Shown here: in pieces, positions 1 through 61,200 of the stretch | How the letters are laid out: each line of letters starts with the position of its first letter | Numbering within the stretch: the first letter of the stretch is position 1 | NCBI GenBank assembly: GCA_905178155.1 | Contig: CAJINV010000002.1 | Location: 2,636,226 to 2,700,225 of the forward strand | Direction of reading: 5' to 3' | Source: Amoebophrya sp. A120 | Taxonomy: Eukaryota > Protista > Dinoflagellata | Length of the DNA: 64,000 nucleotides | Made by a program: the position numbers and the translations under genes | The notes under the pieces: model-generated | Told to the model about the DNA's origin: nothing | The model's database searches: none | What the model saw: only the letters and a program-made list of their open reading frames with translations

Positions 1-1134
1 GGGCAAGCCGATCGCGGATTTGGAGCCGTTTTTGGTAGAGGACATGGGCGGAAAACCGGATTTGCTCAACGCCGCTGATTATCAAATGCAAAAATGTCTG
101 GGTCTGGAAGAATGCAACTTGTAATGCGTATTTCAGAACACCATGCATACGTAGCAAAAGCTCCCACTTTTTGTCAGAAAAATAGGGGACTTGTCATGCG
201 GATTCGGCATTGCGGAAGGTTCTCCAAACCTGTGATGCTAGAGCTTCCATGCCAGCCCTTCTGGGTAATGCAAAAACAGCATGACTCTTCCAGACCCAGA
301 CATTTTTACATTTGATACTGATCAGAAGAACGGGAACCGGGCCGTGCACATCGCCGCGCAGAATGGGCATGAGGAGATCACGAAGTGGCTGATTGGCACG
401 CTGAGTGCGGATGCGAACGCGCAGAATCGGAAGGGGCAGACGCCGTTGCACATGTATAAAATTGTGTTGAATGAACGTGCTTCACCTTTTTATGCATGAC
501 AAACCACGGTTCTGAATGGTACACTCTGCATCACAAATCTATATGGCAAATCAGGTCTATCGAGTACGACTTTTACTTTCAAAACGTTTTTCTCCTGACG
601 TCCGGCGCGGACCAAACCTTAACCAACGCGGACGGGCACCCGGCGATGTTGGGCATCGACGGGAAATATGCATTGCAAATATGTCTGGGTCTGGAAAGTT
701 GGAACTTGTAATGCTGGTCTTGCATTCCTGTCAGATCTGTATTGCATGACTCACAAAAGTCGCAGCCTCTACTGTCATACAAAAACGCAGTTTCTCATGC
801 GGAGCGCGTATGAGGAAGCGTTTTGCAAACGTGTAATGCGTTCCTGCATGAGGGAGCGTTTTCGTCATGCACATTTCAGCATCACAAATTTCCAGACCCA
901 GACATATTTGCATTTGATAGGAAAAAATCCGGGGTGGAGGCCTGGGATCACGCCATGCAGAAGCTGAAGGCCGTCCGGGATGAAGCGAGTATGGAAGACG
1001 CGTTTGCGGCACTGGAAGCGTGCACGGATGAACTGGACAAGGGCATGCTGGGCATGACGGGGATGAAGAAAAAGAAGCAATACAAGGAGTGGTGGGATGT
1101 GAAACGGTTCACGGAAATCATGTCGAAGTTTTGA
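1..1134 (+). CDS. Ankyrin-repeat protein, paralog 1 (5' end outside window; 3 introns)
   Basis: Removing 80-317 and 667-919 (each plus one TSD copy) and GT-AG intron 454-554 gives GKPIADLEPFL...DQKNGNRAVHIAAQNGHEEITKWL...NAQNRKGQTPLHMSIEYDFY...FTEIMSKF*. Has ankyrin TPLH/AA-GH motifs and is colinear with the gene at 2330. Confidence 0.9.
80..317. mobile_element. Introner family A
   Basis: TIR tatcaaatgcaaaaatgtctgggtctggaa; TSD CTGAT. Confidence 0.95.
454..554 (+). other. Canonical GT-AG intron with introner-like internal motifs
   Basis: CAC AT|gtataa...aatcag|G TCT restores HMSIEY; contains gcatgacaaa (494) and gcatcacaaa (528). Confidence 0.85.
667..919. mobile_element. Introner family A
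   Basis: Family A TIRs; TSD GGAAA; restores DGKKSGVE. Confidence 0.95.
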
Positions 1135-2329
1135 TGATAAAGTAAAAACCAAATGGAATGGATCGATAAACGACATATGAAACCGTTTGAGTTTTGACAA
1201 GACATCTACAGGAGCCTGTAGTTCTGCTGGGGGTTACTATTTATGAATTGTAAAAAATGCACCATCTAGTATAGCACGTGCTGTAGTTACAACACATTAG
1301 TCGCGCGCAGCCACGAAGATCCGATTTCTGACCAATCATCCGCCGGCCGAAAACTTTATCTGGGGCAAGTAGCTTGCTTCTCAACAGGAAAAGGCATAGA
1401 CCTTAAAAGTACTAAGTAGTACTCTAGAAAGTAGTTATTTCGCGACCATTTATGATACCTATGATTTTAGGAAGTAGAAGATACTCATTCTCGCCGATCT
1501 ACTACGTCTACCCACGAAGGAACTTGAGAATACAACTTTTTACGCCTGCACATTGCTTGAGCTTCACGCCTGTACAATATTTTGAGCAACGACTCTAAGT
1601 GCATAATTCCAAGGTATGTCCGCATCATGTATCGTCCATTTTGGGAGCGGCAAAGCGCAGGTTTGGTTTTCAATGCTTTGAAAAAGTAGAATCTGCGGTG
1701 TTCAACAAGTACAGCACACGTAATATATTCGACTGCTTAGTCGCGATGTGCAGGGACGAGTCAAAATCATGCATTGTGCAAAAACATTGAATAATCGGTC
1801 TAGAAGAGGTTCATTGCTTGGGCATGTGCTGCATAAATGTCGGTTTTTTTTTTCACCCTTTCCCTGCGTCTACTCGGTGAAGGTGCACACGACCAGAATT
1901 GAGGTCCATGAAAGGACGCACTGGTAGCTCCACATGCGTAAACACGATTCGGTTTCTTTTGTTTTTGTGCATACACTACATCATGATTTCTGTACAAGTA
2001 GTGCAACTGCTGCTTGACACGGTTGTAGTTTATACGGCCCCATGCTTGAAGATATCCCATTCTACTCAACTGGAATCCAAATGTCAATAAATCACAGTTC
2101 TCCCTGGTTGAGAACTCTTTCCCTCAAAAATACGCATCAAACCCCAGTAAGTTTAAGTACAACGTAAGCGTTTAGAATCTGTTTGTTAGTTTCTCCCGCA
2201 CAATTTTTCACTACTTTTGTTGGAAACGCCATCGATCCGTCTTGCAGAGATCAATTTTTTTCCCCCCGGCTGAGTCTGCTTATTTGCAAAAGCAACGAAG
2301 TCAAAAACCCAATCCCAAAACGAGCAATT

Positions 2330-3494
2330 ATGCCAGCGGAAGAAGCGATTCAAAAGTTCCACAGCGCATTGCGCTGGGGAAAGCCGTCGGCCGAGATCGA
2401 ACCGTTCCTCAACGAAGACCCCGCACTGATTGACGCCGAAGACCCGAAGAATGGGAACCACGCACTGCATATGAATTGCAAATATGTCTGGGTCTGGAAG
2501 GTGGTAACTTGTCATGGTAAATCTGAAGCATACAAAAGTCTGTGTTGCATGAGTTCCAGAAGCTGTCCACTTTCGACCAAGTTGGGAGGAAGTTTCTCAT
2601 GCAGGATAGGCATGGCAGAGACCTCATGGGTCATGGAAAATCTGCATGACAAGTTTAGACTCTTCCAGACCCAGACACTTTTGCACTTGATACTCCACAT
2701 CACGGCGCAAAACGGGCACGAGGAGTTGACGAAGTTTTTGGTCGGGAAGGGCGCAAACATCAACGCACAAAACAAGAAGGGCCAGACCGCGTTACACATG
2801 TCAGTCGAGTACGATTTTTACTACCAGAATTTGTTTCTGCTCGAGAACGGCGCAGACAAGACCTTGAAGAACGGGGACGGACATGCCGCCATTCTCGGGA
2901 TCGACGGGGGGAAGTCGGGGGTGGAAGCGTTTGATGGGCCCATGATCAAGTTGAAAGCGATCCGGGATCAGAAGGGAATGGAGGAAGCGTATTTTGATAT
3001 GATTTTGACAATGCATAATTTCATTCAAGTACCCTTCAACTATGGAATTCGATTTGGCATGCAAAATCGAAAACCACATCAAAAAACAGTTTCACCGCCC
3101 TGGAAAACGCCGCTCCAGAACTGGTGGACAAGGCACAACTCGCCCAAGTGGGCATGAAGAAGAAGAAGGAATTTAAAGATTGGTGGGACATGAAACGGTT
3201 TGCGGGGATATCAAATGTAAAAATGTCTGGGTCTGGAAGATTACCAGGTTTGTCATGCACATTTTGCATGACTCCTGATGTCTGTGATGCATGCCCTAGC
3301 ATCACAGATTTTGTGAGGGCTTCCTGATGCCTATACCGCATGACAAATGCTCTTTCCGTGTAGCAAAACTTGGACTCTCTTTGCTGCTCATGCAATACAG
3401 ATTTTTTTAGAATCCAAAATCAGCATGACAAGTTGGATTCTTCCAGACATCCAGGGATTTTTACAGTTGATAGGGGATTATGGGCAAGTTCTAG
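2330..3494 (+). CDS. Ankyrin-repeat protein, paralog 2 (3 introns)
   Basis: MPAEEAIQKFHSALRWGKP...NGNHALHITAQNGHEE...KGQTALHMSVEYDFY...FAGIMGKF* after removing 2470-2692, 2989-3089 and 3209-3472. Confidence 0.92.
2470..2692. mobile_element. Introner family A
   Basis: Family A TIRs; TSD CTGCA/CTCCA (synonymous mismatch). Confidence 0.93.
2989..3089 (+). other. Canonical GT-AG intron with imperfect terminal inverted repeats
   Basis: GC|gtattttgatatgattttg...gaaaaccacatcaaaaaacag|T restores EEAFTALE. Confidence 0.85.
3209..3472. mobile_element. Introner family A
   Basis: Family A TIRs; TSD GGGGA. Confidence 0.93.
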
Positions 3495-4946
3495 GTTTGA
3501 AGAGGTTGAGATAAACAGGAAAGCACATCACCTCTTGGTATATAAAATTTGAAACAAGATCAATCATGTACAGTACAATAAGCTCTAGCTCTTTGACGTT
3601 GACGTCGAGACAGCTCGTTCTAGAAAACCGTACACTGCATCTACTTGTTGGCAGCACGCAAGGGCTTCCTGCTTGTGGTTAAGGTCTCAGCGATTTTTGA
3701 TCTCAGCAGACGCTCGGCCTGCTCAGGGACGATGTTGTGTGGCGAGCTGAATCTTCTCCGGTTTTTGTTTTGTAAATAAATAAGGTTAAATCTTCGTAAA
3801 AAATACCAGTCCAACAGGAACAGCTACAGCACAGCAAGTAGCACCTTCACGACGCACAGCAGAGAGGCACCACATAACCACACCGATTCGCGACATGATC
3901 ATATGCAAGATTTTTTGTAAAGATGGCATAGCAGACACAGACTGGCACTATCAGCGTTAAGAAAATATTAAGCGAGTACAAGAGGATTTTTTTACCATTG
4001 TTGCACAATAATTGGAAAGGGGGTGGACGGATTCGGTTCTGTCTCACAACCTGATTCTGAGAAATGTAAATTTTCGATAGCCTGTAGTACTTGTTGAACA
4101 TGGTGGTTTCCTCGCGATGAACGGATAATGAATGTTTTCATGAATGTTTTCCAAAACCCACAGTTTTTCACCGATTTCGCCTTCACAACTGTACTGCTCT
4201 ATAGAACCCAAGTCCTGAATCATCTTCATCTGAAATCCGTGCGTTCCTTCCAACGCAGTGGCGGCAAAAATGCGAGCGGTGTTAAGTGGTCTTTAATGTT
4301 CACCTGCGTGGTCCCCAGTCTGAACATCTTCTGTGAAAAAAAGAAAAACGGTTCAACAGCCAGCTATGCTTCCTCTCTCGATGGCAGGGCGAATAGAGCC
4401 TAAAAACGTTTGATTGCAGCAACTTTCGGTCTATTTTTTCAACAACAAGAAGAATCTGTGTCGAACGAGCAAAACAGAAAGGAAAGTCTCTCTCCACAGA
4501 TCGGCACCGAGATTTATTTGAAGGATTTCTGTCCGCTTAGAAGTACACGCAGTATGAACTACGAAAATGATGTAAGTTGCTACATGGTTGCGTCGCTAGT
4601 CCTACTCCATCTCGCAACATCATCGCTTGCTTCATCCGCAACAGCCTCACTGTACCCATATTGTATGTAACATGTACCCATTCTCCTGTAATATGCGCAC
4701 TTCTTTAAGTACCCCAGTTTTTATGATCACAGTTCAACATAATTCTCGACATTCGCATTACGATTACGCGCGCGCTGACATAATTCCCATCGTGGATCAT
4801 GGTTTAGTTCTCCAGGATCACCGCTCCCTGGTGGAGCGCAAGGTTTGTGCTACCTAGAGGGTACTTGCCCTCTTGTTCCATGGTAGGTGAAATTCCAAGA
4901 ATTTTTCACTGGTAGAGTACAGTAAGTTTACGCGCAACATCAAAGT

Positions 4947-7900
4947 ATGAACAAAGAAGACGCAGACGCTATTTCCCCCAACATGGTAGAAGGCAGAGAC
5001 AGATCCCCAAGCAACAGCCCTGGCAACGCAGTGTGTAGTACAACTTCCGAAAACAACACAGCCACAAACGGTGTTGTTCCGCAGGAATCTTCTTTACCGC
5101 CGCAAGAGGACCAGCTGCAACAGGTTGACAGCAATCTCCCCGCGGGAGGCCGGATAGTAAACTCCAACCGGCACCACAAGCCACGAAGAAGATCGGACCG
5201 CAATGACAAGAAGCTCCACCAACACTTATTGCAGACTAGTAAGGACAAAGCTAGTTCTAGAGCGGGACAACATCAAGCAGTTATTTCACCGACGTCGAAT
5301 AACGGACACCAGCTGCAGCTGCACCACCCCCAGCAGGCCCAGCACACGGCGAACAGTGTTGCGGATCTGTCTGCGCTCGAGCAGGAGGAAGAGGACCAGG
5401 CTTACTTTTCGGAGCCGGAGGAATTGCAGCGAGGGCGGAAAAGCACCAGCTTGTTTTCCGACGTACTGTCCACAAACACGGAAAATGTGCTGCTGCAGCA
5501 GCACAATTCCTCCTCCGGAGGTGCGGTGGGTGGCGGTAGAAATAATCGAACTGTTAATAACCAGAACGGAATGATTGTGACCACAACAACTCCAAGAAAA
5601 GGGCCACCGGTAGAGCAGCTACCGGTCGGGCAGCAACTCCGAGGTGATCTCTTGCAAAAGCCGATAATGGGTGGAGAAATCATACACAACTCTGGTCTCG
5701 TTGTTCCTGTTGCAGTATTAAATCTTCATGACCTGTCCCAAGATTTAGAGCACACAGAAGAACACGAGCCTTCTACCAACACGCTGCCTGAACAATCAAC
5801 CTCTTCCGCTTCTTCGGCAATTATTATGGGGGATGAAGACGATGGTGATCATGTGGCACTCACAGAACAAGCATCACATGCCAACTTTGCTGGTGAGGTT
5901 CCCGATGCACAGACAGATGCTCACCTCCAGGCACAACAGCAGTTCCTGCACAACGGAGTTCTTCCACAGCAACAGCCGCAGCAGCAAGAAGATACCTTTT
6001 CCAACTCTTCTTCAGCCGATGACATGTTTGGCACCGGACGGTGGCTGGACTCTGCGGAGGATAACCCCAACGCGTTCCTCTCGTCTTTCCCGAATATGGA
6101 TGACGTTGTGGATAGACTGAGGAACAGCGATAATAATCATCATCGTGGTAACGACCAAAACACAGCGGCGTCCGTTGTTGGAAGCAGTAGAGGTGGGAGC
6201 AGGGAGATCGACAATTTGTCAGGCATAATACCTCCGACGCACAACGATAACTCCAGTTCCGCAGTGACTTCTGCTACAGTGTCAAAGGAGATTTTGATGA
6301 ACGGAAGCGGGCAACCACATCTGCAACACGAGCAGCCGCTGTTTGGCAGGAACATTTCCACATCAGAAGACACGGGAACTACGACCTTACGACACGAAGG
6401 ACATCAACCGGTATTAAGCAGTAACATCACCATAGCGACGAGCCAGCACGACATCAAATCCCGACGGTCTTCGACTTCCCACGTCTCGACGCAAAGGTCA
6501 CGAGCTGCGTCAAATCGCCGGTTCAGTGTGAACTCCATGGACGGCGTGGTTTCGACGAGTAATAATTCGGTCACACAGGAGCAGGATCAGCAATACCCAT
6601 TATATCCAGATTCTACTTCGCATCAAGTAGATCATAATGCCTTCGAGGATCAGCATGCGATCATGAACAACGCCGATAACAATTACGCCTACGACCCCGT
6701 TCTTGACCCGGATGTAGAGGATCAACTTCCCCCCATAGCGACCAAAACACCGCTCCCGCCGGACAAATCTTTCTACATCTCCGGTGACCAACAGCAACTC
6801 CGGTCCACGCCGATCTCGCCGCCGACAGATTCGCTTTACAACCAACGAAGCTATTTCACAGCTGTGTTAGGGGAGAAACCTTTGAAACGGAATAACTCCG
6901 ACGCGAATCCGAGCAGTCTGGCAGGGACGATCGGAATTGCACCGACGGGCGATCTAGACGACACGGACGCTGCCCCCTTACCGAGAACGCTGGTATTGGA
7001 TTCCCTGACGGAGGAAATGCCGGGGGACTTGTCGAAAAGTTCTAGTCATTCCCAGCAGGGAATGATGCAGGTAGTGTTTTCAAATTCAACACCTGGCGGG
7101 GGAGTGAATACGAATAGCGATGAACAACATCATCAGCTCATAGACAGCATTGATGGGGCTCCCGCTCCTTCTCCCGCTGGTATAGAACCTTTGTTCCCGC
7201 CATTGCAAACCAGCATGCAGCTAGCCGAGCACGAACAACGGAGCGAAATGCAGCTGGTGATAGGGGGCGGGGCCGGCGTCGTCCCTACAGAGGAACGAAT
7301 ACGCTCTTTGGAGCATTCGGGATTGATTGTCCAACAACAGTCCTCTGGATCTGCTAGTGCAACTTCTATACCACCAGCGGGAGGACAACTGGTACATCAA
7401 AACCAGCACTTTTACCACACGGCAGGAGTGGTAGACCCGAGGATCTCCACGCGTACCAACAATTCGGTGCAGAGTCACTACTCCACCGCAACAACAGTGG
7501 ATCCGAGTGGAATTATGAGAACGGCGCAGCAGCGAGATGAAAACGAAAACCAAAGTCCTGTTTTCCATCAACATCCTCCTACTGGGACCACGACGCTGCT
7601 GATGACCAAAAACCGGGCCACTTCCAGAAGCGGCATATTGCAGGAGGAGGAGGACGTCGAGGAGGTGTTAGTAGGTGGCACGAAGCAGAGTTCTACAACT
7701 TCTGGGTTCTATAATCCTGGACCGTCTGGGCCTGGGGGTCCACCGCCAAGCAGCTACGGAACTTCTTCTGTGCCGGGCGCAGTAGTAATAGATCCGCGGC
7801 TGAGTCAGCAGTCGATCTATGGAAGTACGAAAGTCGAGATGAACATTTATTCGGGTAATCATCAACACAAGAGCGCCGGGGTGGTGACCAGTCGGGATCA

Positions 7901-10900
7901 ACATCCTTCTGGGTTTCAACTACAGCCAGGAACATCAGGAACGACAGCTGCAGCAGTTCTTGGAGGACCTCAATCCTCTCACATGAGCACCACCAACAAC
8001 CGCATCATACCAGTTCCCTCGCCAGCCATTCAGTACGCGACCTTGACATTGAACGACGAGCAGCACTACCTGATTCCGGTGGAAAAAATGAGCGAGTTTT
8101 CGTATCGAGCGACTGTAGAAGCAGGACTACAGGGAAGACTTGGCCCGGCAGGTAATAGTGTTTCTCCTGCTGCGGCTGCGCAACAGGAACAAATGCAACT
8201 GCAGAATCAGACTGCAAAGCGTCCTTCCAGCAGAATAACGCACCGCCCGTCTCCGATTCTAACCGCTATTGCTAGTAACAACAATCCACCCACATCAGCG
8301 ACGTCGTTTTCCAGCCCACCCATGCAACATCCCTTGACGGCGCCGCATGCCGGGCGAGTTGTAGATACGCAACATCAACAAGTGCTTTACCAGCAGCCAA
8401 ATATGAAAGGCGTCTTGCCGGCAGCATCAGGTGGCGCAAGTGCTTCGAGTCAGTTCGAACCTAGTCCGAGTTTGCAGCCACAGAAACAACTGCAGCACGA
8501 ACAGCTGTCCTCGGGTGCAGCGTCAAGTTCCGTGGCGCCGCAAGTCCTCCTCGAGCAGCAGCCGTATCATCCTCACCACCTTCCGCAGGTGTCCTTTTTC
8601 CACTGGCTCGGCCGGGAAGTGACCGGGGAATCGGATGCTCCCTCGCCCTACTACAAGTACAGCCGGGCGCTGCACTTGGAGGATTTGATGCGCACCCCGT
8701 GGCGGTTGGAGAAGACGCTGCTCTTCGGGATGTTTCTCTGCCTCGACGCGCTTTTGCACGAACTGACGTTTATGCCGATAAACGTGTTGCGGAGCGTACT
8801 GTTTGGGTCAACAAGCTCGCCGTCAACAGAGGCGACGAGCGCTGGTATTAAGAGCAAAAGTAAACAATCGTCGACAGGAACGGCGAATAGTAACCCTACC
8901 CAGAGCAAGAAAAGTGGAAGCAAGCAGGAGATTGGTGGGGGAACAAGTACTGCAGTTTCAAGTGTCAAGGACGGCGGTGCAACAGCAGGCGGGGTTACAA
9001 GTGGGGCTAGTACACCAGGTGAAAGCAGTGCTCCGACCGGAGACAACCTCGTGCACGGGACAACCCATACTGGGACGACGAGTACAGCAACAAATAACCC
9101 CGCCTCGTCATCAACATCCCTTGTGGTCGTGCCCAGTAACAACAAAGCAACTTCTTCGGTAACAGCAGCAGGAGGAGGAGGCAACACAACTACAACTAGC
9201 TCCACAACTTCCAGCATAGAGAAGTCCGAGACTTTCCGGCTCACTTTGCTCCTGCTCAACTCGCTGCTGGTGCTCTACTTGATTGATTTCTCCTTTCTCT
9301 ACCACTACATTCGGTCGCAGTCGTTCATGAAATTGTACGTCTTCTTCAACATGTTGGAGATCATCGAGCGGTTGTTGCGGTTATGCATTGCAAATATGTC
9401 TGGGTCTGGAAGGTTGCAACTTGTAATGCTAACTCTGGATCATCCAAAAATCTTTGTTGCATGAATGCCAAAACTTGTCCACTTTTGACGAAGTTGAGAG
9501 GAAGTTTCTCATGCAGAATAGGCATGATAGGGCTCTCACAGAATCTGTCATGCTAGGTGCTGCATTCCAGACGACATGGATCATGGAAAATCTGCATGAC
9601 AAGTCTCGGAATCTTCCAGACCCAGATATATTTGCAATTGATAGCGGTCGCTCGGCAACGATTTTTTCGACGTCTTGCTCGAACCAACCGGCGGGGCAGA
9701 TAGTTCTTCAAGTGGAGCAGGTACTACTACTTCTGGAGGCGCGGTGCAGAGGGAGAAGTCTGGAGAAATGGCCGGTCGGGATTCGCATATGCATTCGCAA
9801 ATATGTCTGGGTCTGGAAGAATGCAACTTGTGACGCAAATTTGAGATAACACAAAGATCTGTCATGCCTAGACAGCAAATGCGGCTCAGAACTTGGCACT
9901 AAAAGCGGGGGTTTGTCATGCGGATTAGGTATTGAGACACCTTCTCAAGACGTGTGATGCTAGGGCTTGCATGCCAGACCTCCTGGGTCATGCAAGAGCA
10001 GCATGAGAAACATCTACACTCATCTAGACCCAGACACATTTGCACTGGATATCGCAACTGAGACGGCAACTAAGCCAAGGCGGAGCAGGGGCTCAACACG
10101 GAACAACGTCGTGTATGAGATTGCACAACTCCCCCTTCCCCTCATTTGTAATGCAAAATACCAAATCCACCCTGTGGCTCTTGGCACTTTTTGCATGACA
10201 AGTTCTGGCAGCCCAAATAGCACTACATTTCTGTGCAAATTTGTCATGCAAAACCTGCGTTCTTGTTGACACTTGTATTGCTGTTCATGCTATACAAATG
10301 AGGGGGAGGGGGAGTTGTGCACTGTTATATCGTCAAGAGGTAGGCTATTGACCTCCGGAACCCTTACCGCGCAAAGCCCAAAACAGGGCGGCCGGAGCTC
10401 GCCAAAACAGAGTGTGGTCTCCACGTCGAGCGGCGCTGGGTTTCTTGGGATGCAAAATGTTACAGCTATATCTAGTCATGATCACCAACAGTTTCAGCCG
10501 CGGGTTTCGCAGAGAAGTAGTGGAAATCCTTCTTCAACAACACGATCGCCACTGAAGCAGCAGGGAACAACAAACAACAATTTCACAGCTTTAGCGCAGC
10601 ACCAGTCCACCTCTTCACAGGAGCACCAGGCAGGCAGTAGTACAAATTCAAACTTCGCTTTGAACCAGCAAAGAATCAGCACGATATCCACTTCGTCGTA
10701 CGAGTCGACTGGTGTTGGTCAGCAGCAGATGCAGGTCAACGCCGCGGCTCACACTTCTCAACAGCGCCCGAACCACGGCAGCAGTTACTTGAGTCAGTCG
10801 GCCGGCGCGAACGTATTACAGAAGGAGATCCAGCTGGTGAATTTGCAATTGGGCAGCGTAAGCGCCGGTGGGCATCAGCTCACGCAAGACCGAAGTAAAC

Positions 10901-12796
10901 TCACCGCGAGCTCTTCCAATGCGCCGACGTCTCCGATTTCGAGTCCGATCTCCAGCCAGAGCAGCAAATCGGTGCCGGCGTCTCCAGTGGGGAGCAAGGG
11001 GACGACAGGTATGTTTGAACTGTCGGAGATGAGTGGTCATCAGTTTAATAACATGTTGCCAGGAGAACAACACCAGCTGGTAGGCAGTAGTAGTACCAGT
11101 GGTCTTCGAAGGCTCTCGAAGCACAGCTCAGCCAGCAAGACGTCCGGAACGTCGACCGCTAGGGAATTACAACAGCAAAACCGGGCAACGGAGATGAAAA
11201 TGAGCGGCAATAGCAGTAGTGGTGGAACACCAACTTCTTCCTCCTCGAATCAGTTACACCAGCCGCAACTTCTGTCATCTACTTCTGGCATCAATTACAA
11301 CAACAGCTCGAACAAAACATCAAGTCACTACCAACCCGCGGCGATTTTCGCGCCACTCTACTATTTCCTCCTTTCGAGTGACTACTTTTCCGTCATTCGA
11401 CTACTCTTCACGGTGTTGTACTGTGCTGTGCACACGATAATGCACATCGTCCGCATTTTGCTACTCAACATTGCGCTCAATTCCCCGGGAGACTCCTCCG
11501 CGATGTTTTTGCTCATCGTCACCAACAACTTTGGGGAATTGAAATCCACCGTGTTCAAGCGGTACGACGGGAAGGGTTTGTTCGTCATCATGGCCAGCGA
11601 CATGGTGGAGCGGACCTACCTGCTGGTGGATATTCTGTTGGTGCTGGCGCGACTCTACTTCTCGCCGCGAAACAATTTCACCAACGTGAGCTCCTCCACC
11701 GTCGCGTCCCAGGGCAGCAGCGAGATCGCGTTCTGGCTGAGTCTCATGATCGTCATGGAGATTGGGGTGGATATGGAACTGTCAGGATTGAAATGGACAA
11801 AGTTGAAAAATTTGTGATGCATAGAACCGATACCACTTGGAAGCCCAATTTCCAAGCGGCGCATGACAAATTTCGACGTCATCATAATCCAGTTTGTGAT
11901 GCTGTTTAGCGAAAGAAGGCGTCCTTTGTCATGCTACTTCAGCAGCTCTATCCCAAACCCGAAACAGGCTCACAAGCGGCCTCACATGCAATCCCTGCAA
12001 GACAGTCACCTCGTGCCTTGCATTTTATGCATCGCAGATTATTTCAACTCTGTCGATTTCAATCCTGACGCTTCCATAGTGGACTGGTTTAAGTTGTCCT
12101 TTATCACCAAAGCGAACTCGTTACCCGTCTCCACGTTCGACTACTACAAGGACGTGTTGGTGATGGACGTGCTCGGTAGCCGCAGCACCTCGAGCAGCAG
12201 TGGCGGTGGCACCAGTGCGGGCAACAGCAACTCGCAGATCGAATCGCCGTTTCGGGGCGTGTATCAAATGCAAATATGTCTGGGTCTGGAAGATTCCGAG
12301 ACTTGTCATGCAGATTTTCCATACCCCATGCTGTCTAGAATGCAGGACCTAGCATGAGAGATTCTGTGAGCAGATCCCTATCATGCCCATCTTGCATGAG
12401 AAACTTTCTCTCATTCAACTTGGTCAAAAGTGGCCAACTTTTGGTATTCATGCAACACAGATTTTTGCACGATCCAGAATTAGCATTACAAGTTGCAGCG
12501 TTCCAGAGGACCCAGACATATTTGCATTTGATAGTGTGTACGGGTACGCCCACATCCCCGTGCGGCGGATCGGGTTTGTGGCCCTGCCGTTGACGAGCAT
12601 GGTCGTGTGTCACCTGCCGATCTTGCTCAAGTGGTACCCGAACGTGCGCACGCGGCTGTTGCTGCTGGCGCTGTGGTGGGTCAACGCGGTTTTGCTGAAG
12701 ATCCTCAGCAGCATCCTCCTGTCCGGCTACAGTGTAAGGCGGGCGGTGAATCTCGGGAAACTGCCGGAAACCTTCTACCACATCAAGGCGCTGTGA
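4947..12796 (+). CDS. TAPT1: TAPT1/Emp65-family multipass membrane protein with long Q/S-rich low-complexity extensions (5 introner introns)
   Basis: Motifs PWRLEKTLLFGMFLCLDALL, YHYIRSQSFMKLYVFFNMLEI, TNNFGELKSTVFKRYD, ASDMVER, EIGVDWFKLSFITK, RRIGFVALPL; frame continuous after element removal. Confidence 0.85.
9382..9643. mobile_element. Introner family A
   Basis: TIRs; TSD GCGGT; restores LRSLGNDFFD. Confidence 0.95.
9788..10051. mobile_element. Introner family A
   Basis: TIRs; TSD TCGCA. Confidence 0.93.
10114..10329. mobile_element. Introner family B
   Basis: TIR tatgagattgcacaactccccc / gggggagttgtgcactgttata; TSD TCGTG/TCGTC. Confidence 0.88.
11772..12078. mobile_element. Introner family C
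   Basis: TIR tatggaactgtcaggattgaaat; TSD GTGGA; restores GVDWFK. Confidence 0.95.
12262..12533. mobile_element. Introner family A (reverse orientation relative to 9382)
   Basis: TIRs; TSD GCGTG/GTGTG. Confidence 0.93.
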
Positions 12797-13735
12797 TAAT
12801 TCCAGATATGAAAGCTTTTGTTTTCACAAATTGCATTTTCACAGTTTATCAGATTGAAAGCACACCAGCGCCACCGCCATCTGCGATCTCCGTTGTAAAG
12901 TACTTGGCGAATACTACAGGAACAACTCGAAACTGTTACTCCACGCAAAAACAAGTATCGAAAAACGTGAAAACAAGAAGAAAATACGCTCAAATAGTTA
13001 GTACAGGAACCGGCGAACGAAAACGATACAGAATTATCGTGAATAAAAGGAGTAGATGAAGCCCAAACGTACAGGCGCACTTATTTGCCGCTTGTCGCTG
13101 CCTTGTTCTCGTCTTCGTCTTATCGTTCTTACCGATGGCGTGTATCACAATTCTACGCAGGACAGATTTATTTCGATTTATTGAGCCGCATACTAACTAC
13201 GTTCGTCCGAGAAAAAAAAAAACGCGAACAGCTTCTGTCCTACTTGTTCAAATGTCGTGACTTGTTTTCTCTTGCTTCGTTCAACACTTAGGGCTTGTCA
13301 CTGTTTCTGTGCCCGAGCTCGGTTTTCTTCGTCAAACCCGTTCAATACTTCGTGCGCCCCCGCCCTCGTTCACTCGTCCGATACAGGAAAATACCGCTCG
13401 TCCTCCGATGCGAATAAACAAGAGACAATTTTTATGCCGGAGAGTGCATTTTGTTTGAGCACTGCACCCATTACGGACCGTCGTTATGTTTTTGCCCTGT
13501 TTAGAACAAGTCGAAGTTCTGAATCAGCTTCCATACGACCAACATCATTCGTGGACTAAATCTAAACCAAACAGGTGAATCAACTAATCGAGCAACTACA
13601 ATTGCCACCCCGCATTGCACTTGCAAGATTTGAATCACGAAACCTACTTCGGTAATAATTTTCGTATCAGCATTAGCTACCGCTCGCTTTCTTCCTTTTT
13701 TCAAATTTCAATATCGGAGATACTATCAAATAAAC

Positions 13736-49902: not shown

Positions 49903-52724
49903 ATGCCGAAATCCTCTACTTCCCCCACCTCTTCCTCTTCCTCCCCGAAGAACGCGAAAGCCAACGCTGTATCAATTGCAAATATGTCTGGGTCTGGAAA
50001 TGAAGTGGAACTTGTATTGCGTGTCCAGGATTCCAGAAAAATCTGTATTGCATAAAAGCACCAAGAGCGCCGCGTTTTCATCGTGAGAAAGCGCAGTTTG
50101 TAATGCGCAATAAGCATGAGAAAGTGTCTGAAAAATTTGTCATGCTCCACTGCTCTTACAGGCGCAGTCACTCATGGCCATTCAGCATTACAGGTTTGCA
50201 GACCCAGACATATTTGCAATGCATACGCTTCCACCAAACCCCACGCAGTGAACGACGACGGCCGGAGACCGTTGCCGAAAAATGGCGAGAAAAAGGAACC
50301 CGGGGTTGTGTACGAGGATGGGTCCTACATTCCCATCGTGGACAAGGAGCTCATCGGCTTCATGCGGTACGCCGGGGATGTTTACGACGACGGGGATAAG
50401 GCCGCGGACACAGACCCGTCGGACTTGGATTCTGCGGATGATGACCAATTGAATCGGGATTCCGATTCCCTCGTTTCCTTCGACGAGGACAAGGAGAAAG
50501 CGAAATTGGACGAGGAGAAAGAACTCTTATCCGAGAACGAGTTTGACAAAAGGACCAAGGAAATCGAGGATCGAAGAGAAAAGTTCGAGCATAAGGAGAT
50601 CAAGCGCGTTCCGATTCGGACCGTTTTGGATGAGAAATTTGGCTTCACGGAGGATTTTCAGCGCCACGCCGCTGGGTATCTGACAAGACACCCCGCGAGC
50701 AAGTTCTACAAGAAGATCAAGGACGAGCCGATCCGGGCGCATAAACGGTTCGACCAAGCTATCATTTGTAACAACGTCCCCACCCCAGAGTTGTAATGCA
50801 AATCATCTGCATGCTGAAAGTGTTTCTCATGCGGAGACCCATGCGAAGCAGTCTGTAGTCGTCTTTTGGTATTTGTGATGCTAGAATCAGCATGATATAG
50901 ATATGCTAGATCTGTGATGCTTCTGAACAAGCTAAACAGGAGTACACTACGAGGCCATACTTGTCATGCGCAGCAGCAAAAGCTGACAGATTTGTCTAGC
51001 AGATTTCCCACTTTGACTCTGGTGTGGGGACGTTTTTACTAAGGATACAAGCGGATCTGCGGATTACGAAAAATAAACACGGGCCCTGCAAAGGGCAAGA
51101 TTGGAGCTGGCAGGAGTTGAACACGTTTGTGAAGGGGGAAATCAGAAGAAAAAATCACAAGCCGAAACTGAAGCCGAAAAGGCTGGTTTCCTCCGACTGG
51201 TTGGAAGAGATGATGGTGGATGAAGTTTTGCAAGATGCAGCCGATGTGACGATATGCAGTGCAAAAGCATCGTACTCGTATAAATGCATTACAAATTTCC
51301 CCAGCGTGAGAAATAATAATTTGTAATGCGGATTTACCTCAAGAAAAAGATTTGTAATGCATGGCTGCAATACGACTGCCTACGATACTTTTGCACAGGA
51401 TAGACGAGAAAAGCGAATGAATCGGACGATGAGAGATCCAAAGACCATATCATACCAAAAAGTGTTAACGTTAACGGAATTTGGCATGCAGGAATGCACG
51501 AGAAATGATGCCCCAAGTTGTATTGCATAGCATGCATGATAGCGAAAATTTGTCATGCATGCCTGCAACGCCCCAAAACCGCTATACGTATAGCACTTTT
51601 TTCGTTGATAGACCAGCACGCGGCCTTGTGGGCGGAGAAAAATCCGAAGAAGAAGATGCACATGAAAATGCCGCTGGAGGACTCGTATTTGAAGAACAAG
51701 GAGGACACGAAGGAGGAAGCATTACGCGTGAAACTGGAAGAAAGAGCGGAATATCCAGTGCAAAAATGTCTGGGTCCCCTGTGCGGGATTTGTCATGCTA
51801 GTCGGGCATGACACTGAGCTCTGTATTGCGTGGCCAGCAAGAGGAGCTCCTCTTATCTGTCATGCAAAAACGCTGTTTGTCATGCGGATTACGCAAGAAC
51901 ACGGACACGGAGCCAAGATGAATAAATCTGTCATGCCTGGCGCTGCATTACAGTGTGCTTTCTTTTCACTGACATGCATCACAAGTATCCAGACTCAGAC
52001 GTATTTGCAATGGATACGGAATTCGCCCGGATGCTAAAGGAGGGGTACACGCAGGACATCACCAATGAGGAGAAATATCCTGTGCAAAAGTATCGTAGTC
52101 GTACTAATCGCATTCATGCATTACAAATGTCTTTCTCAAGGCAGATCCGCATTACAAATTTTATTTCTCGTGCTGAGGGAATTTGTCATGCATTTATACG
52201 AGTACGATACTTTTGCACAGGATAAGAAACAGGCGCTGATGATATCCAAAGTGAAAACGTCCCCACGTCGACCCCAGCAGAGTCAAGATGGGGACTTTGC
52301 AACACAAACCTAGAAGTTTTGGAATTTACGCATGACAAGTTGCAGTCCGTAAGGTAGGGCAAGTTAGCAAGGACAGCAGCTGCATTACAAATCCATCTGC
52401 TTATCCTGTTTACAGCAACACAAAGTTAGTTGTCCCAAACACGATAATTGAAAATGCCTGTCATGCGGATGCGGATCACAAAAGATTCCTGTCACTGCAA
52501 AGCTGCATGACAACGCTGGGTTTTGGGGACGTTCCTACACGGGATACATGACGAAAGCGAGGTTCGCGATCCAGGATAAATACGCGGAGAGGGGTTACGA
52601 AGAAATCAAAGCGGAAGAGGATAAGAAAGCGAAGGCGCGGGCGGAACATGTGGAAACGAAAGTTTACAGTCGGATGGAATTGAGAGCGAAGGAAAAGGCG
52701 AAAAAATCCGCGCTGTTTGGGTGA
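49903..52724 (+). CDS. Hypothetical charged (K/E/D-rich) protein with 7 introners from 4 families
   Basis: MPKSSTSP...EPGVVYEDGSYIPIVDKELIGFMRYAGD...AKKSALFG* continuous after removing all 7 elements. Confidence 0.85.
49970..50225. mobile_element. Introner family A
   Basis: TIRs; TSD CGCTG/CGCTT. Confidence 0.92.
50760..51047. mobile_element. Introner family E
   Basis: TIRs (aacgtccccac); TSD CAAGC. Confidence 0.92.
51253..51402. mobile_element. Introner family D (reverse orientation relative to 52076)
   Basis: TIRs; TSD GACGA. Confidence 0.93.
51448..51610. mobile_element. Introner family H
   Basis: tatcataccaaaaagtgtta / tagcacttttttcgttgata; TSD GACCA. Confidence 0.85.
51752..52016. 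mobile_element. Introner family A
   Basis: TIRs; TSD CGGAA. Confidence 0.92.
52076..52224. mobile_element. Introner family D
   Basis: Perfect TIR tatcctgtgcaaaagtatcgta; TSD AGAAA. Confidence 0.95.
52243..52546. mobile_element. Introner family E
   Basis: TIRs; TSD GATGA/CATGA. Confidence 0.88.
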
Positions 52725-55526: not shown

Positions 55527-55618
55527 AATTTGTCATCCTGCACTCCACTAAAGGGCACAGTCCATCATGGCCATTCAGCATTACAGGTTTCCAGACCCAG
55601 ACAGTTTTGCAATGCATA
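55527..55618. mobile_element. Right half of a family A introner (5'-truncated)
   Basis: ...ttccagacccagacagttttgcaatgcata with no left TIR. Confidence 0.85.
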
Positions 55619-55779
55619 GAACCCGGGGTTGTTTACGAGGATGGGTCCTACATTCCCATCGTGGACAAGGAGCTGATTGGCTTCATGCGGTACGCCGGGG
55701 ATGTTTACGACGACGGGGATAAGGCCGCAGACACAGACCCGTCGGATTTGGACTCGGCGGATGATGACCAATTGAATCG

Positions 55780-56080
55780 TATCCTGAGTAGAAACGTACG
55801 TCCCCACCCCAGAGTCAAGATGGCGAGGTTGCTACACAAGTCAGCAAGTTTTTGCTGTTTCGCATGACAAGTTTATTGGACTCGTCGAGCAGTGCTGTTT
55901 CAGGTAGTGCAGATGCATCACCAATTGCCTACCCTATCCTGATTTCAGCATCACAAACTTCCACGATAACATTAGAAGATGGTCCTCAAGTTGTAGGGGC
56001 CTGCGCATGAGAAACATTTTAGGTCGTGTGCCACTTTGCATGACAACTTCTCTGGCGTGGGGGCATTTTTACTTAGGATA
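55780..56080. mobile_element. Introner family E
   Basis: TIRs; TSD AATCG/CATCG; empty site AATCG at 50452-50456. Confidence 0.9.
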
Positions 56081-56144
56081 CATCGTGACTCCGATTCCCT
56101 AGTGTCCTTCGACGAGGACAAGGAGAAAGCGAAATTGGACGAGG

Positions 56145-56458
56145 TATCACAAGGAAAAATGCCCCCGCCCCATAACAAAACGGAAATCTGTGATGCAGAT
56201 TTGTGGCCACAAATCAGCTTTGTCATGCCAGAAGGGAAAAGATGCGGACTGTAGTGCTGGGCTGCGTGGGAAAGCCTTGCATCTTCAGCATGAGAGGAGG
56301 CAGCTGGAAGTGAAAAACAGCATGACAAATTGCCTGCAAACGAGGCCACAACTGCGGCTCTTGGCCTTCTAGCAAGACAAGGCGACTTGTCTACTCAAAT
56401 GCAGCATCACGACAAACGTCGTCTTCGATTTGGGGAGCGGGGATTTTTCCTTTTGATA
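56145..56458. mobile_element. Introner family G
   Basis: tatcacaaggaaaaat / atttttccttttgata; TSD CGAGG; site empty in the paralog. Confidence 0.9.
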
Positions 56459-56590
56459 CGAGGAGAAAGAACTCTTATCCGAAAACGAATTTGACAAAAG
56501 GACCAAGGAAATCGAGGATAGAAGAAATAAGTTCGAGCATAAAGTTCGAGCATAAGGTCGTCTTTTCGTGTCTTCGTCCACTGACGGTAC

Positions 56591-57733: not shown

Positions 57734-58208
57734 CACTGACGGTACATCTCGCCAACCTTTTATTTCGGAACCGCTTTACTTTTTGTGAAAAATCCAGGGT
57801 CCCGGTTTGTCCCACCTTTTTGTCGATATTGCGCTCAACCGAAAGGCTGAGCTGTATATTTTTTTTCGTTTTTTATTTCCTCTTCCAGTAAGTTCACGTT
57901 GTTGTACTTACGTAGAATTGCAGGTAGTTGATTTTGAGATTTCATTTTCTACCTCTTCTACTGACAGCACATCTTCGAGCCGCTTACTGGAGTCTTTAGA
58001 AATTCTTGTAGCAGTCACTGATTTACCCGTCGATTTTTTTCTGAGCAAGAAAAAATCGACCGGGCCCGTTTTTCTTTCTACCCATTTTTATCATTTTATT
58101 CCGTAAAGCTCAAGCTACTGTGAATCTCAGTTTCTAGCTCGTTATCTCGCGATCTATCCCTACCCCAGCGAATACTTTTTCCTGAAAAAAATAAACTACT
58201 ACAGAAAT

Positions 58209-61200
58209 ATGAGTAGAAAAATGGCACGCAAGACGATTCAAGCCTTTCTCGCCGCTGCCGCAACGGCGTTGTCCTTATCGCCGCTGTTCACAGGAACTGT
58301 AGTCACCGCGCAGATCTCTTCCCCGAGCGGGCAGGCGAATAGCCAATGCGGGGTCAGCCCGAATGGGAAAGTTTTGGACACAAGCAATATCCGGCAGTTG
58401 GAGTCAAAGTTGAATACCATGGTAAATCAGGATCGAACTGAGGATAAAAACGATGAAGAACGACCTTCAGAAGAAGTAGATTTGTTCCAGCCCCGTTCTC
58501 TCCTCGTCGGCGGTCAGGATTCCGACCCCTGCGAGTGGGCCTGGCATGTGGCGTTAGTCCAGATTGAGCGCACGGTCAGGACCGTAACAAATGTGGACGG
58601 TTCTTCCACAACCACGAAGTCCCTTCGGTGGCGGTATCGGTGTGGCGGATCTCTGCTGTCCGAAACCCACGTCTTGACCGCGGCGCACTGTGTGGACGAC
58701 TTGACCAGCGCGGACTCGTTGCACGTGCTCGTCGGGCTTCACTCCTTACTGGATTTGCAGAGGATGTCGGAACACGAGCTTGAAAAGCACGTCGTCGCGG
58801 TGCAAGTGGTCCACATCCACCCCGGGTATTACAACAACAATCAAAGACGGAAGAACCGGAACAAGAACAACGTGAAAGCGGAGGGGTCTAGCGGAAATCT
58901 CTTGTACGACTACGCGGTCCTCGGCCTGGTCGCGCCGCCGAACGGGGCCGGAACATCATCAAATGGACCCAATCAGCAGGACAAATCGACATCCGACAAC
59001 GACTTCATCGACGACATTGCAGATTTCATTTTCGACGGAGATCCGGTTCTGTCGGACGAATCCTTCAGCAATATGCATTGCTAATATGTCTGGGTCTGGA
59101 AGGATGCGAACTTGTGATGCATGTTGCGAATCATGCAAAAATCTGTGTTGCATGACTTGCAAAAGCTGTCCATTTCTGGCCATGCTGAGAGAGCATTTGC
59201 ATTTCTCATGCACAATAGGCATCACCAAGGGGCTGCAAAACGTGTGACGCCATGCGGCCCTGCATTACAGACTTGGCGGAGCTTGGAAAAACTGCATGAC
59301 AAGTCTCGGAATCTTACAGACCCAGACATATTTGCATTGCATAAGCAACTTCGCCTTACAATCCAACACCGACGCGCACTCTAATACAAATCTGAACGCA
59401 AACTTCGTCCCGGAGCTGATGCGGAGCAAAAAATGCCTAGTCAACGGCGAACCGCGGATCAATTTCGTCTGCCTCCCAAACGCGCCCTTAGACTCCGAGG
59501 CGATAAAACGCAAGTACGAGGGGGAGAAGGGAGTGATCGGCGATTTGACGGTCTATGCCGATAACGTCGGGTCCACAGGAAGTTTTTCCGGCAACGGCCC
59601 TAACCACTTGGAGGATTACATCTGCGTGACCACCGGTTGGGGCCAGTCCGAGCAGTCTTCTTCCGCTACGTCTGATTTGATCCCCAATGTTCTCCAAGAA
59701 ACGGAGATTGAATTAAACCAACACTGCTCTGTGTACGCATCAGCAACTTCATCCGGAGGTTCTAGTAACTCCGACTCCTCCTCTGCGATTGAGCAATTTT
59801 TCCAGAACATCCGGGGAGACAACTACCCGTCGATCTTTATCCTGTGTAAAAACGCCCCCACATCAGAGAGTCTGTCATGCGATAATCAGGATCACAGACT
59901 GGATCTGTGATGCGTTTGGACCACTAGCTAGGCACGACTATATTACACTGCGCAGCCAAAGAACTTGTCATGCGTGAGTCCCAAACATGCCCGATTTGTC
60001 TTGCCAAGATCCCAACTTGCCTCTGGGCTGCTGGGGACGTCTTTATTACACAGGATAATCTTGTGCGGTTCCGGCCTGAACCTCGCTTCCAACCCGCAGC
60101 ACACGGGTATGGAAGTGTCAGAATCGAAATCGACAAAATCGAAATGATTTGTCATGCATGAAATGGATTCCAGTTCGAACCCAGTTTCTAAGTGGCGCAT
60201 CACAAATTCTGGTGGTGCCTAAATCCAGTTTGTAATGCTGTTTAGGCAAAGAAGCCCGATTCTCTCATGCTGCTTTAGCAGCTCGAGGTATAGCCCCAAA
60301 CAGGCTTGCAATCGGCCTCACATGCCTGCTCTGCAACACACGTATTTCGCGTTATGCATTTTATGCATCACAAATTTTTCGATTTTGTCAATTTCGATCC
60401 TGACAGTTCCATAACGGGGTCCGGGTCCTGCGCCGGGGATTCCGGGGGCCCGCTGGTTTGCAAACACAAGAATTCCGACCAGTGGGTGCAATACGGGATC
60501 GTTTCGCAGGGGAGATCGCTGTCGGGCGAGGTCTTGCAGGATTGCGACGTTTCGAACGAAGATCATGACTTGGAAACCTGGTTTGCCGATACCTTCTACG
60601 CAAGGAGCTGGATCTACGAAAAGGCAAGCCTTATGAAATGCAAAAATGTCTGGGTCCGGAACAATGCAAACTTGTGATGCTGTGTTTGGATGCTATAAAA
60701 AATTTGTATTGCGTGACCAGCAAGAGGAGTCCATTTTGTTTTTGTGCTCCGTGGAGAGGGTATTTCTCATGCGGAACAGGCATCAGGAAGCTCTCTAAAA
60801 ATCTGTGATGCTAGACCACGCATTACAGGCGTCAGGGGTTATGCAAAATATGCATCACAAGCCTGGCAATCTTCCAGACCCAGACACTTTTGCATTCCAT
60901 AAGCCTCTCCACCCAACCATTGGAATACGAGCAGCCGAAACGAGCGGTCGCCAGGATTTTCGTGTATCAAATGCAAAAATGTATGGGTCTGGAAGATTGT
61001 CATGCTAGTCCGGTAAGACTCTGCACTCTGTATTGCGCGGCCACCAAGAGGTCCTCTTGCATGTCATGCAAAAGCGCAGCTTCTCATGCGAAATACGCAT
61101 CACAGAAGCACGAAAAAACTTGTCATGCTTGGCGGCGCAGTACAGAGCGCTTATTGTTCACGGACTTGCATCACAAGTTTCCAGACCCAGACATTTTTGC

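What the first reader, a model, noticed from the sequence alone, without database searches (positions are those of the whole stretch)
80..60413. The same element works as an intron in both orientations
All host genes are on +, yet sister copies are reverse complements: 80-317 vs 21623-21873; 9382-9643 vs 12262-12533; family C 11772/60108 vs 17236; family D 52076 vs 51253. A conventional intron has polar signals (donor, branch point, pyrimidine tract, AG). Here the information must be symmetric, lying in the TIR stem and/or motifs present on both strands. This points to structure-guided splicing, or else DNA-level excision.
Basis: seen in the sequence. Interest (0 to 1): 0.8.

Follow-up and report, generated by a model that had tools for sequence, protein, structure and literature searches.

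The report
Orientation-blind transposon introns in Amoebophrya
Short jumping-DNA elements already described in the plankton parasite Amoebophrya A120 sit inside genes facing either way and are removed, most likely from the RNA, probably because their two ends read the same when flipped, with the cut likely placed at a fixed distance from those ends rather than at the usual GT-AG letters.

Summary
The window is Amoebophrya sp. A120 (a database protein of that name matches a window gene at 100%), and the elements are its published TAT...ATA introner elements (Farhat 2021). I count 46, with terminal inverted repeats (TIRs) and 5-bp target duplications (TSDs). All named sister pairs are reverse complements, and orientation is unbiased against the host strand (nearest sister 85 same, 104 opposite). 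Removing element plus 5 nt restores long reading frames, with no gap against an A25 orthologue at opposite-facing sisters in one gene. Contigs of a probable RNA run skip both orientations, while a DNA run keeps them, so DNA excision is unlikely. Two-way introners are known (Polarella, Aureococcus), but those use G[TCA]-AG; here only 25 of 211 could. Four informative junctions agree on one cut, 1 nt before TAT and 4 nt after ATA. This suggests a ruler rule like Euglena's, probably read by a relaxed spliceosome. That rule rests on few cases. Both orientations fold strong hairpins, but I found no sign of RNA-level selection on the stem, so 'structure-guided' is possible but not shown. Known system; I did not find these two properties in the papers searched.

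The parts
80..317 (.). Element, family A1, orientation a (signs are arbitrary within a family); perfect 5-bp TSD; in ankyrin gene 1
   Evidence: removal with 5 nt gives a frame that lines up with the paralogue; no RNA contig shown
454..554 (+). Predicted GT-AG intron made from a decayed element: donor G-TAT, acceptor 11 nt after ATA
   Evidence: restores the paralogue's motif; not RNA-checked
667..919 (.). Element, family A2, orientation a
2470..2692 (.). Element, A1 orientation a; TSD differs at position 3; RNA keeps the left base (cut register 3-5)
   Evidence: joint 2467>2696 (228 = 223+5)
2989..3089 (+). GT-AG intron, itself a decayed TIR element with donor G-TAT
   Evidence: joint 2988>3090
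3209..3472 (.). Element, A1 orientation b; skipped in the same RNA contig as 2470
   Evidence: joint 3203>3473 (269 = 264+5)
4926..12793 (+). Host frame, 2174 codons after removal of five elements; DUF747 (TAPT1-like) protein
9382..9643 (.). Element, A1 orientation a (named pair)
9788..10051 (.). Element, A1 orientation a
10114..10329 (.). Element, small family; TSD differs at position 5; RNA keeps the right base, the left base would make a stop (register 0-4)
11772..12078 (.). Element, family C orientation b (named)
12262..12533 (.). Element, A1 orientation b, sister of 9382 in the same gene (named)
   Evidence: orthologue identical across the junction; depth arithmetic 25.7 expected, 25.7 seen
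13634..18195 (+). Host frame, 962 codons after removal of five elements; PAN-domain protein
   Evidence: orthologous DNA in L080
13894..14149 (.). Element, A2 orientation b
   Evidence: RNA piece starts at 14150
15155..15658 (.). Old element with a fully diverged TSD; intron 15154-15662 is GT-AG at exactly register 4
   Evidence: pieces end at 15153 and resume at 15663 at adjacent contig positions
16644..17092 (.). Element shared with the relative's locus L080
   Evidence: RNA piece ends at 16638
17236..17532 (.). Element, family C orientation a (named); empty site with one 5-mer in L080
   Evidence: RNA support only indirect and inexact
17578..17722 (.). Element, family D orientation b; empty site in L080
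21623..21873 (.). Element, A1 orientation b, sister of 80 (named); host only a predicted 42-codon + frame
28843..29123 (.). Element, A1 orientation a; TSD differs at position 1
29365..29625 (.). Element, A1 orientation a
30141..30374 (.). Decayed element, host not assigned
31308..31526 (.). Decayed element, host not assigned
31566..31863 (.). Decayed element, host not assigned
31925..32074 (.). Element, family D orientation b
37363..37617 (.). Element, A2 orientation a, in an 1801-codon frame
39582..39843 (.). Element, A1 orientation a; last base changed
40976..41240 (.). Element, A1 orientation b, in a 742-codon frame
44521..44771 (.). Element, A2 orientation b, in a 941-codon frame
44902..45107 (.). 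Element, small family
45191..45443 (.). Element, A2 orientation b (sister of 667, opposite)
47385..47646 (.). Element, A1 orientation b
47683..47961 (.). Element, family E orientation a
49855..52721 (+). Host frame with seven elements; from its first Met identical to the 403-aa A120 protein P0001
49970..50225 (.). Element, A type; TSD differs at position 5; the annotated protein has the right-copy residue (register 0-4)
50760..51047 (.). Element, family E orientation b
51253..51402 (.). Element, family D orientation a (named)
51448..51610 (.). Element, no close sister
51752..52016 (.). Element, A2 orientation a
52076..52224 (.). Element, family D orientation b, sister of 51253 in the same gene (named)
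52243..52546 (.). Element, family E orientation a; TSD differs at position 1
55780..56080 (.). Element, family E orientation a, in a partial paralogue; the paralogue's empty site matches the left TSD copy
56145..56458 (.). Element; empty site in the paralogue
58107..61519 (+). Host frame, 692 codons after removal of five elements; trypsin-family protein
59072..59343 (.). Element, A1 orientation a
59838..60057 (.). Element, E-like
60108..60413 (.). Element, family C orientation b (named), just before the trypsin catalytic-serine motif (motif recalled)
60632..60901 (.). Element, A1 orientation a
60965..61208 (.). Element, A2 orientation a
61627..61892 (.). Element, A1 orientation a
61920..62181 (.). 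Element, A1 orientation a; begins TAC, preceded by G
62542..62813 (.). Element, A1 orientation b

Best explanation
These are the known TAT...ATA introner elements of Amoebophrya A120, MITE-like elements that duplicate 5 bp on insertion and lie in either orientation without bias, and they are likely spliced out of the pre-mRNA by a relaxed U2-type spliceosome that probably cuts at a fixed distance from the element ends. Shown: TIRs, 5-bp duplications, empty sites, unbiased orientation, and exact removal of element plus 5 nt in both orientations. Inferred: because the two TIRs are reverse complements, either orientation gives the same RNA ends, N-UAU(C/G) at the start and (G/C)AUA-NNNN at the end. 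The donor cut falls 1 nt before TAT, so TAT stands at +2 to +4 of a GUAU-like donor whose first G is no longer needed. The acceptor cut falls 4 nt after ATA, set by distance rather than by AG. One TSD's worth of bases is removed, so the original coding sequence returns. The long terminal hairpin may help bring the ends together, but it need not be the signal.
For: Identity: P0001 is named Amoebophrya sp. A120 and matches 100%; the published A120 IR motif is TAT, seven loose bases, then an A run, as seen. Transposon anatomy: 5-bp duplication in 229 of 295 elements found without regard to the TSD (1 of 295 at 4 bp, 0 at 6 bp); empty sites in L080 and in a paralogue. Orientation: families split 41:30, 15:12, 14:11, 8:5, 6:5, with no inconsistent edge. 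Removal: 37 of 46 junctions fall in + frames of 250 codons or more with +5 nt, against 16-19 for frame-shifting amounts; no gap against the A25 orthologue at 9382, 11772 and 12262; RNA-like contigs skip 2470 and 3209, of opposite orientation, in one contig. Register: 2470 gives 3-5; 10114 gives 0-4 (RNA, and a stop at 5); 15155 gives exactly 4; 49970 gives 0-4 (annotated protein); predicted stops exclude 0 and 1 in two loci of the relative. Spliceosome: elements that have become GT-AG introns keep the donor at G-TAT (15154 and 2989 by RNA, 454 predicted); 15% of canonical A120 introns carry IR and DR; 5 of 7 copies whose 5' TAT became TAC have G in front (p 0.02, post hoc).
Against: The register rests on four junctions. 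The only one that fixes it at 4 is an old GT-AG copy; without it the range is 3-4. DNA-only tests were null or weak: G before TAT 14 of 34 against a mirror control of 12 of 34; codon plausibility 29 of 46, p 0.05; end asymmetry p 0.07; the TAC result is 5 of 8 in a second set (p 0.04). In decayed GT-AG copies the acceptor lies about 3 or 11 nt past the end, not 4. The source paper calls the borders variable or unknown and found no U1 snRNA. No lariat, branch point or spliceosome dependence was tested. The RNA status of run X3 is the tool's guess, and its tables were cut.
Confidence: 0.55

Rival explanations
1. Structure-guided, spliceosome-independent removal, as proposed for Euglena nonconventional introns: the TIR stem is recognised as a hairpin, cut at fixed offsets outside it and religated, releasing a circle or a linear piece.
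For: Both orientations fold far better than shuffles (z -9.3 and -6.2). No dinucleotide signal in any register. U1 not found. Euglena uses a spacer rule around an inverted motif.
Against: No excess of G-U over A-C in the sense-strand stem (122:139, p 0.32); sense more stable in 22 of 46; the pair next to TAT/ATA is mismatched in 84 elements. GT-AG hybrids of the same elements occur here, whereas hybrids are rare in Euglena. TIR quality is already explained by transposition.
Confidence: 0.22
2. Same RNA-level removal, but with no fixed register: donor and acceptor slide together within the 5-nt repeat, copy by copy, and the mRNA comes out the same.
For: 35 of 46 window TSDs are perfect, so the cut cannot be placed. 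The source paper describes variable borders. DNA-only tests for a register were weak.
Against: All four informative junctions and two predicted stop cases are compatible with one register. The paper's spread of 1-5 nt is also what ambiguous mapping inside a 5-nt repeat would give (inference).
Confidence: 0.2
3. DNA-level excision (IES-like) at some life stage, leaving an element-free template.
For: TIR and TSD anatomy would allow precise excision; only one deep DNA run was laid, and its life stage is unknown.
Against: DNA run X1 (depth about 28) has contigs that run from the flanks into the elements and span 2989-3089, 15155 and 16644 intact, with depth 0 at the three displayed X3 joints. X3 contigs stop at gene ends, differ in depth by gene (509, 64, 23) and skip GT-AG introns too. 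Caveats: X1 may be the window's own source, contigs drop rare variants, and some X1 joints were not counted.
Confidence: 0.03

Closest known systems
Amoebophrya A120 introner elements (Farhat et al. 2021, PMC7789003; abstract, sections 10-12, 16, 25, 32, passages and supplement legends read, figures not seen)
   Same: Same organism and same elements: TAT-start inverted repeats, 3-5 nt direct repeats (5 bp in the Fig. S19 legend), hairpins, repeated families, RNA-supported non-canonical introns.
   Different: The text I searched does not mention element orientation against the host gene, and leaves the border position variable or unknown. Here: unbiased orientation, a strict 5-bp TSD and a candidate fixed register.
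Two-way introners of Polarella glacialis and Aureococcus anophagefferens (Roy et al., bioRxiv 10.1101/2020.10.14.339549, parts 1-2 of 4 read; Aureococcus only as cited there)
   Same: TIR elements with TSDs create introns in either orientation.
   Different: They recruit G[TCA] donors and AG acceptors from the TSD or element, and classes 6, 8 and 10 are described as biased to one orientation. Here only 25 of 211 have such ends in any register, and there is no bias.
Euglena nonconventional introns (Nomura et al. 2025, PMC12501133; abstract, sections 7, 8, 12 and passages read)
   Same: MITE-like origin, inverted motif near the ends, no GT-AG, cut set by spacer length (rigid at the donor, looser at the acceptor).
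   Different: The motif is CDG...CHG with spacers 3 and 5-6 and a purine at the exon start; here TAT...ATA with inferred spacers 1 and 4 and no purine bias. Hybrids with GT-AG are rare there and present here.
Fritillaria borealis MITE-derived non-canonical introns (seen only in passages of the review PMC11282704 and in search listings)
   Same: TIR/TSD-derived introns removed by a modified spliceosome.
   Different: Preferred ends AG-AC and AG-AT; here the terminal dinucleotides are free.
IS3EU/GingerRoot and Ginger2 DNA transposons (passages of PMC10045372)
   Same: TA..TA termini (IS3EU/GingerRoot); 4-5 bp TSD (Ginger2).
   Different: IS3EU/GingerRoot make 6-bp TSDs, seen in 0 of 295 here; no transposase was examined, so the superfamily is open.

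Membership tests
Amoebophrya A120 introner elements | Found in A120 | tested here: met
   P0001, named A120, equals the window frame after removal of seven elements
Amoebophrya A120 introner elements | Inverted repeat starting TAT, loose middle, run of As | tested here: met
   profile (TAT required there); with one change allowed over the two ends, TAT at 235 and ATA at 233 of 245
Amoebophrya A120 introner elements | Direct repeat of 3-5 nt at the borders | tested here: met
   5 bp in 229 of 295; 35 of 46 in the window
Amoebophrya A120 introner elements | Repeated in families and removed from transcripts | tested here: met
   15 families; of 14 elements in 1-20000, 3 exact joints, 5 more by exact length arithmetic, 2 one edge only, 2 inexact, 2 not shown
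MITE (non-autonomous TIR DNA transposon) | TIRs, constant TSD, empty sites with one target copy | tested here: met
MITE (non-autonomous TIR DNA transposon) | Autonomous partner with the same ends | not tested
   no whole genome held; the paper found no transposase in A120
IS3EU/GingerRoot superfamily | TA..TA termini with 6-bp TSD | tested here: not met
   termini fit, but 6-bp TSD in 0 of 295
Canonical U2-type intron | GT/GC donor and AG acceptor | tested here: not met
   GY-AG in at most 8 of 211 per register; G[TCA]-AG in 25 of 211 over all registers
Canonical U2-type intron | Lariat with a branch adenosine; dependence on U2/U6 | not testable with these tools
   no usable raw RNA reads (X9 gave 9 reads)
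Two-way introners (Polarella, Aureococcus type) | Intron formed in either orientation | tested here: met
Two-way introners (Polarella, Aureococcus type) | Splice dinucleotides supplied by TSD or element | tested here: not met
Euglena-type nonconventional intron | CDG...CHG motif and purine at the next exon's start | tested here: not met
   motif is TAT...ATA; purine at TSD position 5 in 123 of 211, like other positions
Euglena-type nonconventional intron | Cut set by fixed spacers from an inverted motif | tested here: inconclusive
   four junctions agree on 1 and 4 nt; DNA-only tests weak
Euglena-type nonconventional intron | Released as a circle, not a lariat | not testable with these tools
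   needs raw RNA reads or bench work
IES-like DNA elimination | Element-free joints in genomic DNA | tested here: not met
   DNA run X1 keeps the elements; one deep run, contigs only

The most novel reading that the evidence does not exclude
Amoebophrya A120 has a splicing code with no terminal dinucleotides: N-UAU...AUA-NNNN, read as a ruler from the transposon ends and matched to the transposase's 5-bp cut. Any insertion, at any site and in either orientation, is then a perfect intron at birth. This would be a second, independent origin of a Euglena-like code, possibly run by a U1-less spliceosome or a separate enzyme, with old copies drifting into GT-AG introns at the same donor position.
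Probability: 0.45. Interest if true: 0.75.

Novelty: already known. Interest (0 to 1): 0.47.

Why it matters
How Amoebophrya removes tens of thousands of introns without GT-AG, and apparently without U1, has been open since 2021. Orientation-blindness confines the signal to the symmetric ends. Copies whose two TSDs differ give a direct way to place the cut with existing RNA-seq. If the 1-and-4 rule holds, it defines the splice code, corrects A120 intron borders, explains why these transposons can fill coding exons at little cost, and sets up a comparison with Euglena. Orientation-blindness by itself would not surprise a specialist in TIR-derived introners.

Tried and rejected
No whole genome is held. 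No holder was on record as RNA; the raw RNA run X9 gave 9 partial reads and X6 behaved as shallow DNA, so neither informs splicing. RNA evidence covers only 1-20000; the middle of the window, with four more informative TSDs, stays unchecked. Rfam found nothing in 1-28000. No protein longer than 572 aa matched the PAN gene exon, and the A120 copy of the DUF747 protein was not listed; both blanks are weak. Canonical splice sites hidden in the TSD: rejected. Orientation bias: none. RNA-level selection on the stem: none seen. G gain before TAT or AG gain after ATA in diverged TSDs: none against the mirror control (its two-or-more-mismatch class holds wrongly delimited elements). Frame alone cannot tell +5 from +2 nt (37 of 46 each); the RNA joints, empty sites and orthologue decide for 5. 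Depth arithmetic for 17236 and 17578 did not fit exactly (13.5 expected, 10.8 seen; 2.9 or 8.2 if either were kept). Rows dropped: 69 of 280 elements without a host strand; 22 of 211 without a sister at 70 bits in the nearest-sister count; 44 of 289 without a strand. A branch point at the first A of ATA is a guess from the recalled YUNAY consensus, untested. Earlier scan findings: none returned.

Full report
What is there. The window holds 46 elements of 145-504 nt with inverted ends, nearly all TAT...ATA. An exon search returned one protein, labelled Amoebophrya sp. A120, at 100% identity. It equals the frame 49855-52721 from its first Met once seven elements, each with 5 extra bases, are removed. 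Farhat et al. 2021 (PMC7789003) describe exactly these elements: A120 inverted repeats starting TAT, short direct repeats, hairpins, more than 60% non-canonical introns, no U1 snRNA found.

The observation. All named pairs align only as reverse complements once the TIRs are cut away, far above 200 shuffles. Forty-two of 46 elements sit in + frames, none was called on -, and four are unassigned, among them 21623, whose host is only a predicted 42-codon frame. The codon model was trained on this window, so Pfam hits and orthologues are the independent support. Two named pairs share one gene each: 9382/12262 in a 2174-codon DUF747 frame and 51253/52076 in the P0001 gene.

A wider sample. A scan with the family A end gave 136 loci (about 411 kb); the 80 listed all come from one other assembly, and one locus aligns to the window at 77-95%. 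A search blind to the TSD found 295 elements there; 229 have a perfect 5-bp duplication, 1 a 4-bp and none a 6-bp one. L080 lacks 17236 and 17578 and has one copy of each 5-mer; a partial paralogue pair in the window shows two more empty sites. Host strand could be called for 211 of 280 elements. Against that strand the five largest families split 41:30, 15:12, 14:11, 8:5 and 6:5, with no inconsistent edge, and the nearest sister is in the same orientation for 85 and opposite for 104 of 189 (p 0.19).

Both orientations are removed. With element plus 5 nt removed, 37 of 46 junctions lie in + frames of 250 codons or more, against 16-19 for frame-shifting amounts and 5 on the - strand. The A25 orthologue aligns without a gap across 9382, 11772 and 12262, so this host is no pseudogene. 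In one search (bases 1-20000, 14 elements), contigs of run X3, which the tool guesses to be RNA, skip 2470 and 3209, of opposite orientation, in one contig, each by its length plus 5. A second contig leaves exactly 196 nt where removal of 9382, 9788 and 10114 predicts 196. Its remaining length and the bin depth (25.7 expected and seen) fit removal of 11772 and 12262. A third joins 15153 to 15663. The fit for 17236 and 17578 is inexact, and nothing is shown for 80 and 667. The joint and piece tables were cut (742 and 44,487 rows not shown). DNA run X1 keeps the elements. It may be the window's own source and contigs hide rare variants, but DNA excision has no support.

Where the signal lies. 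TSD bases look like coding sequence. GY-AG occurs in at most 8 of 211 in any one register, and G[TCA]-AG in 25 of 211 over all registers. The 5' and 3' TIR profiles are mirror images, and an inner motif occurs in 201 of 211 elements, 243 times sense and 217 antisense. But this follows from TIR anatomy and does not separate sequence reading from structure reading. Both sisters fold strong hairpins (z -9.3 and -6.2). Yet G-U does not exceed A-C in the sense stem (122:139), the pair next to TAT/ATA is broken in 84 elements, and the sense strand is the more stable in 22 of 46.

Where the cut falls. Copies with unequal TSDs place it. At 2470 the RNA keeps the left base at position 3. At 10114 it keeps the right base at position 5, and the left base would give a stop. 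At 49970 the annotated protein has the right-copy residue; A120 gene models were built from transcripts. At 15155, an old copy, the joint is unambiguous: 1 nt before TAT and 4 nt after ATA, which there reads GT-AG. The only register that fits all four is 4; without 15155 it is 3 or 4. Two other decayed copies also use G-TAT as donor (2989 by RNA, 454 predicted), though their acceptors lie about 3 and 11 nt past the end. Five of 7 copies with 5' TAC have G in front (p 0.02, post hoc; 5 of 8 in another set). Against this, G before TAT is not enriched in diverged TSDs (14 of 34, mirror 12 of 34), codon plausibility is borderline (29 of 46) and end asymmetry is p 0.07.

Mechanism. I commit to a relaxed U2-type spliceosome that reads N-UAU(C/G) as a donor without its first G and places the acceptor by distance from the 3' TIR, with the hairpin as a possible aid (0.55). 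The reason to prefer the spliceosome is that the same elements grade into GT-AG introns at the same donor position, whereas Euglena, where a separate machine is proposed, has few hybrids. This step is inference; no lariat or dependence was tested. Rivals are a Euglena-like hairpin cutter (0.22), a sliding register (0.20) and DNA excision (0.03).

What is known. Two-way introners are reported in Polarella and Aureococcus, with G[TCA]-AG sites. Gozashti 2022 allowed opposite-orientation copies in its screen (passages); the 2025 paper lists A120 introners and asked for like-end matches (passages). Euglena has a tested spacer code. Another Amoebophrya genome uses mostly GT-AG (passages of PMC12005148). 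I found no statement on element orientation or a fixed cut for Amoebophrya in searches, or in text look-ups. Subscription journals, figures and the Gozashti datasets were not seen.

Verdict. A real feature of a known system. Orientation-blindness is confirmed and quantified but is expected for TIR elements. The candidate ruler rule is the part worth following, and existing RNA-seq could settle it. Interest 0.47; 0.75 if the rule holds genome-wide.

Noticed in passing
window 454-554, 2989-3089, 15154-15662: All three GT-AG introns that I looked at are decayed TIR elements with the donor at G-TAT; many 'canonical' A120 introns may be old elements.
   Followed up: partly
window 1-1131 and 2168-4223: Two tandem ankyrin paralogues carry elements at different sites, so insertion followed duplication.
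   Followed up: partly
window 55518-56620: Partial duplicate of the 49855-52721 gene, starting with the 3' half of an A-type element and carrying two elements that the other copy lacks.
   Followed up: partly
window 56585-57616: 344-codon + frame that resembles, from recall, the C-terminal part of a non-LTR retrotransposon protein; no Pfam hit at E 0.01.
   Followed up: partly
window 20229-20357: A 72-nt inner fragment of a family A element without its ends, flanked by a direct repeat of about 27 nt, as after repair-type capture.
   Followed up: no
all families: An inner motif TTGT(A/C/G)ATGC is shared by families with different TIRs and points inward from both ends (149 of 162 related matches lie inside elements; positions); a candidate transposase or splicing-factor site.
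   Followed up: partly
window 4926-9380, 34313-37362 and the intergenic stretches: Elements cluster in some coding stretches and are absent from long low-complexity exons and from most spacers; not tested against a null.
   Followed up: no
window 19055-19399: Possible decayed element with matching ends but no TSD; L080 has a family A element near the matching place.
   Followed up: no
L080 4289-4695: Matches to window 20952-21111 and 13555-13800 are adjacent, which suggests a tandem copy or rearrangement in the relative.
   Followed up: no
L003 (558-nt element) and L013 (358-nt element): Long elements with 7-9 inner motifs and unmatched TSDs may be one element nested in another.
   Followed up: no
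window 21580-21960: Predicted 42-codon hydrophobic + frame that hosts element 21623; no homology test was possible.
   Followed up: partly
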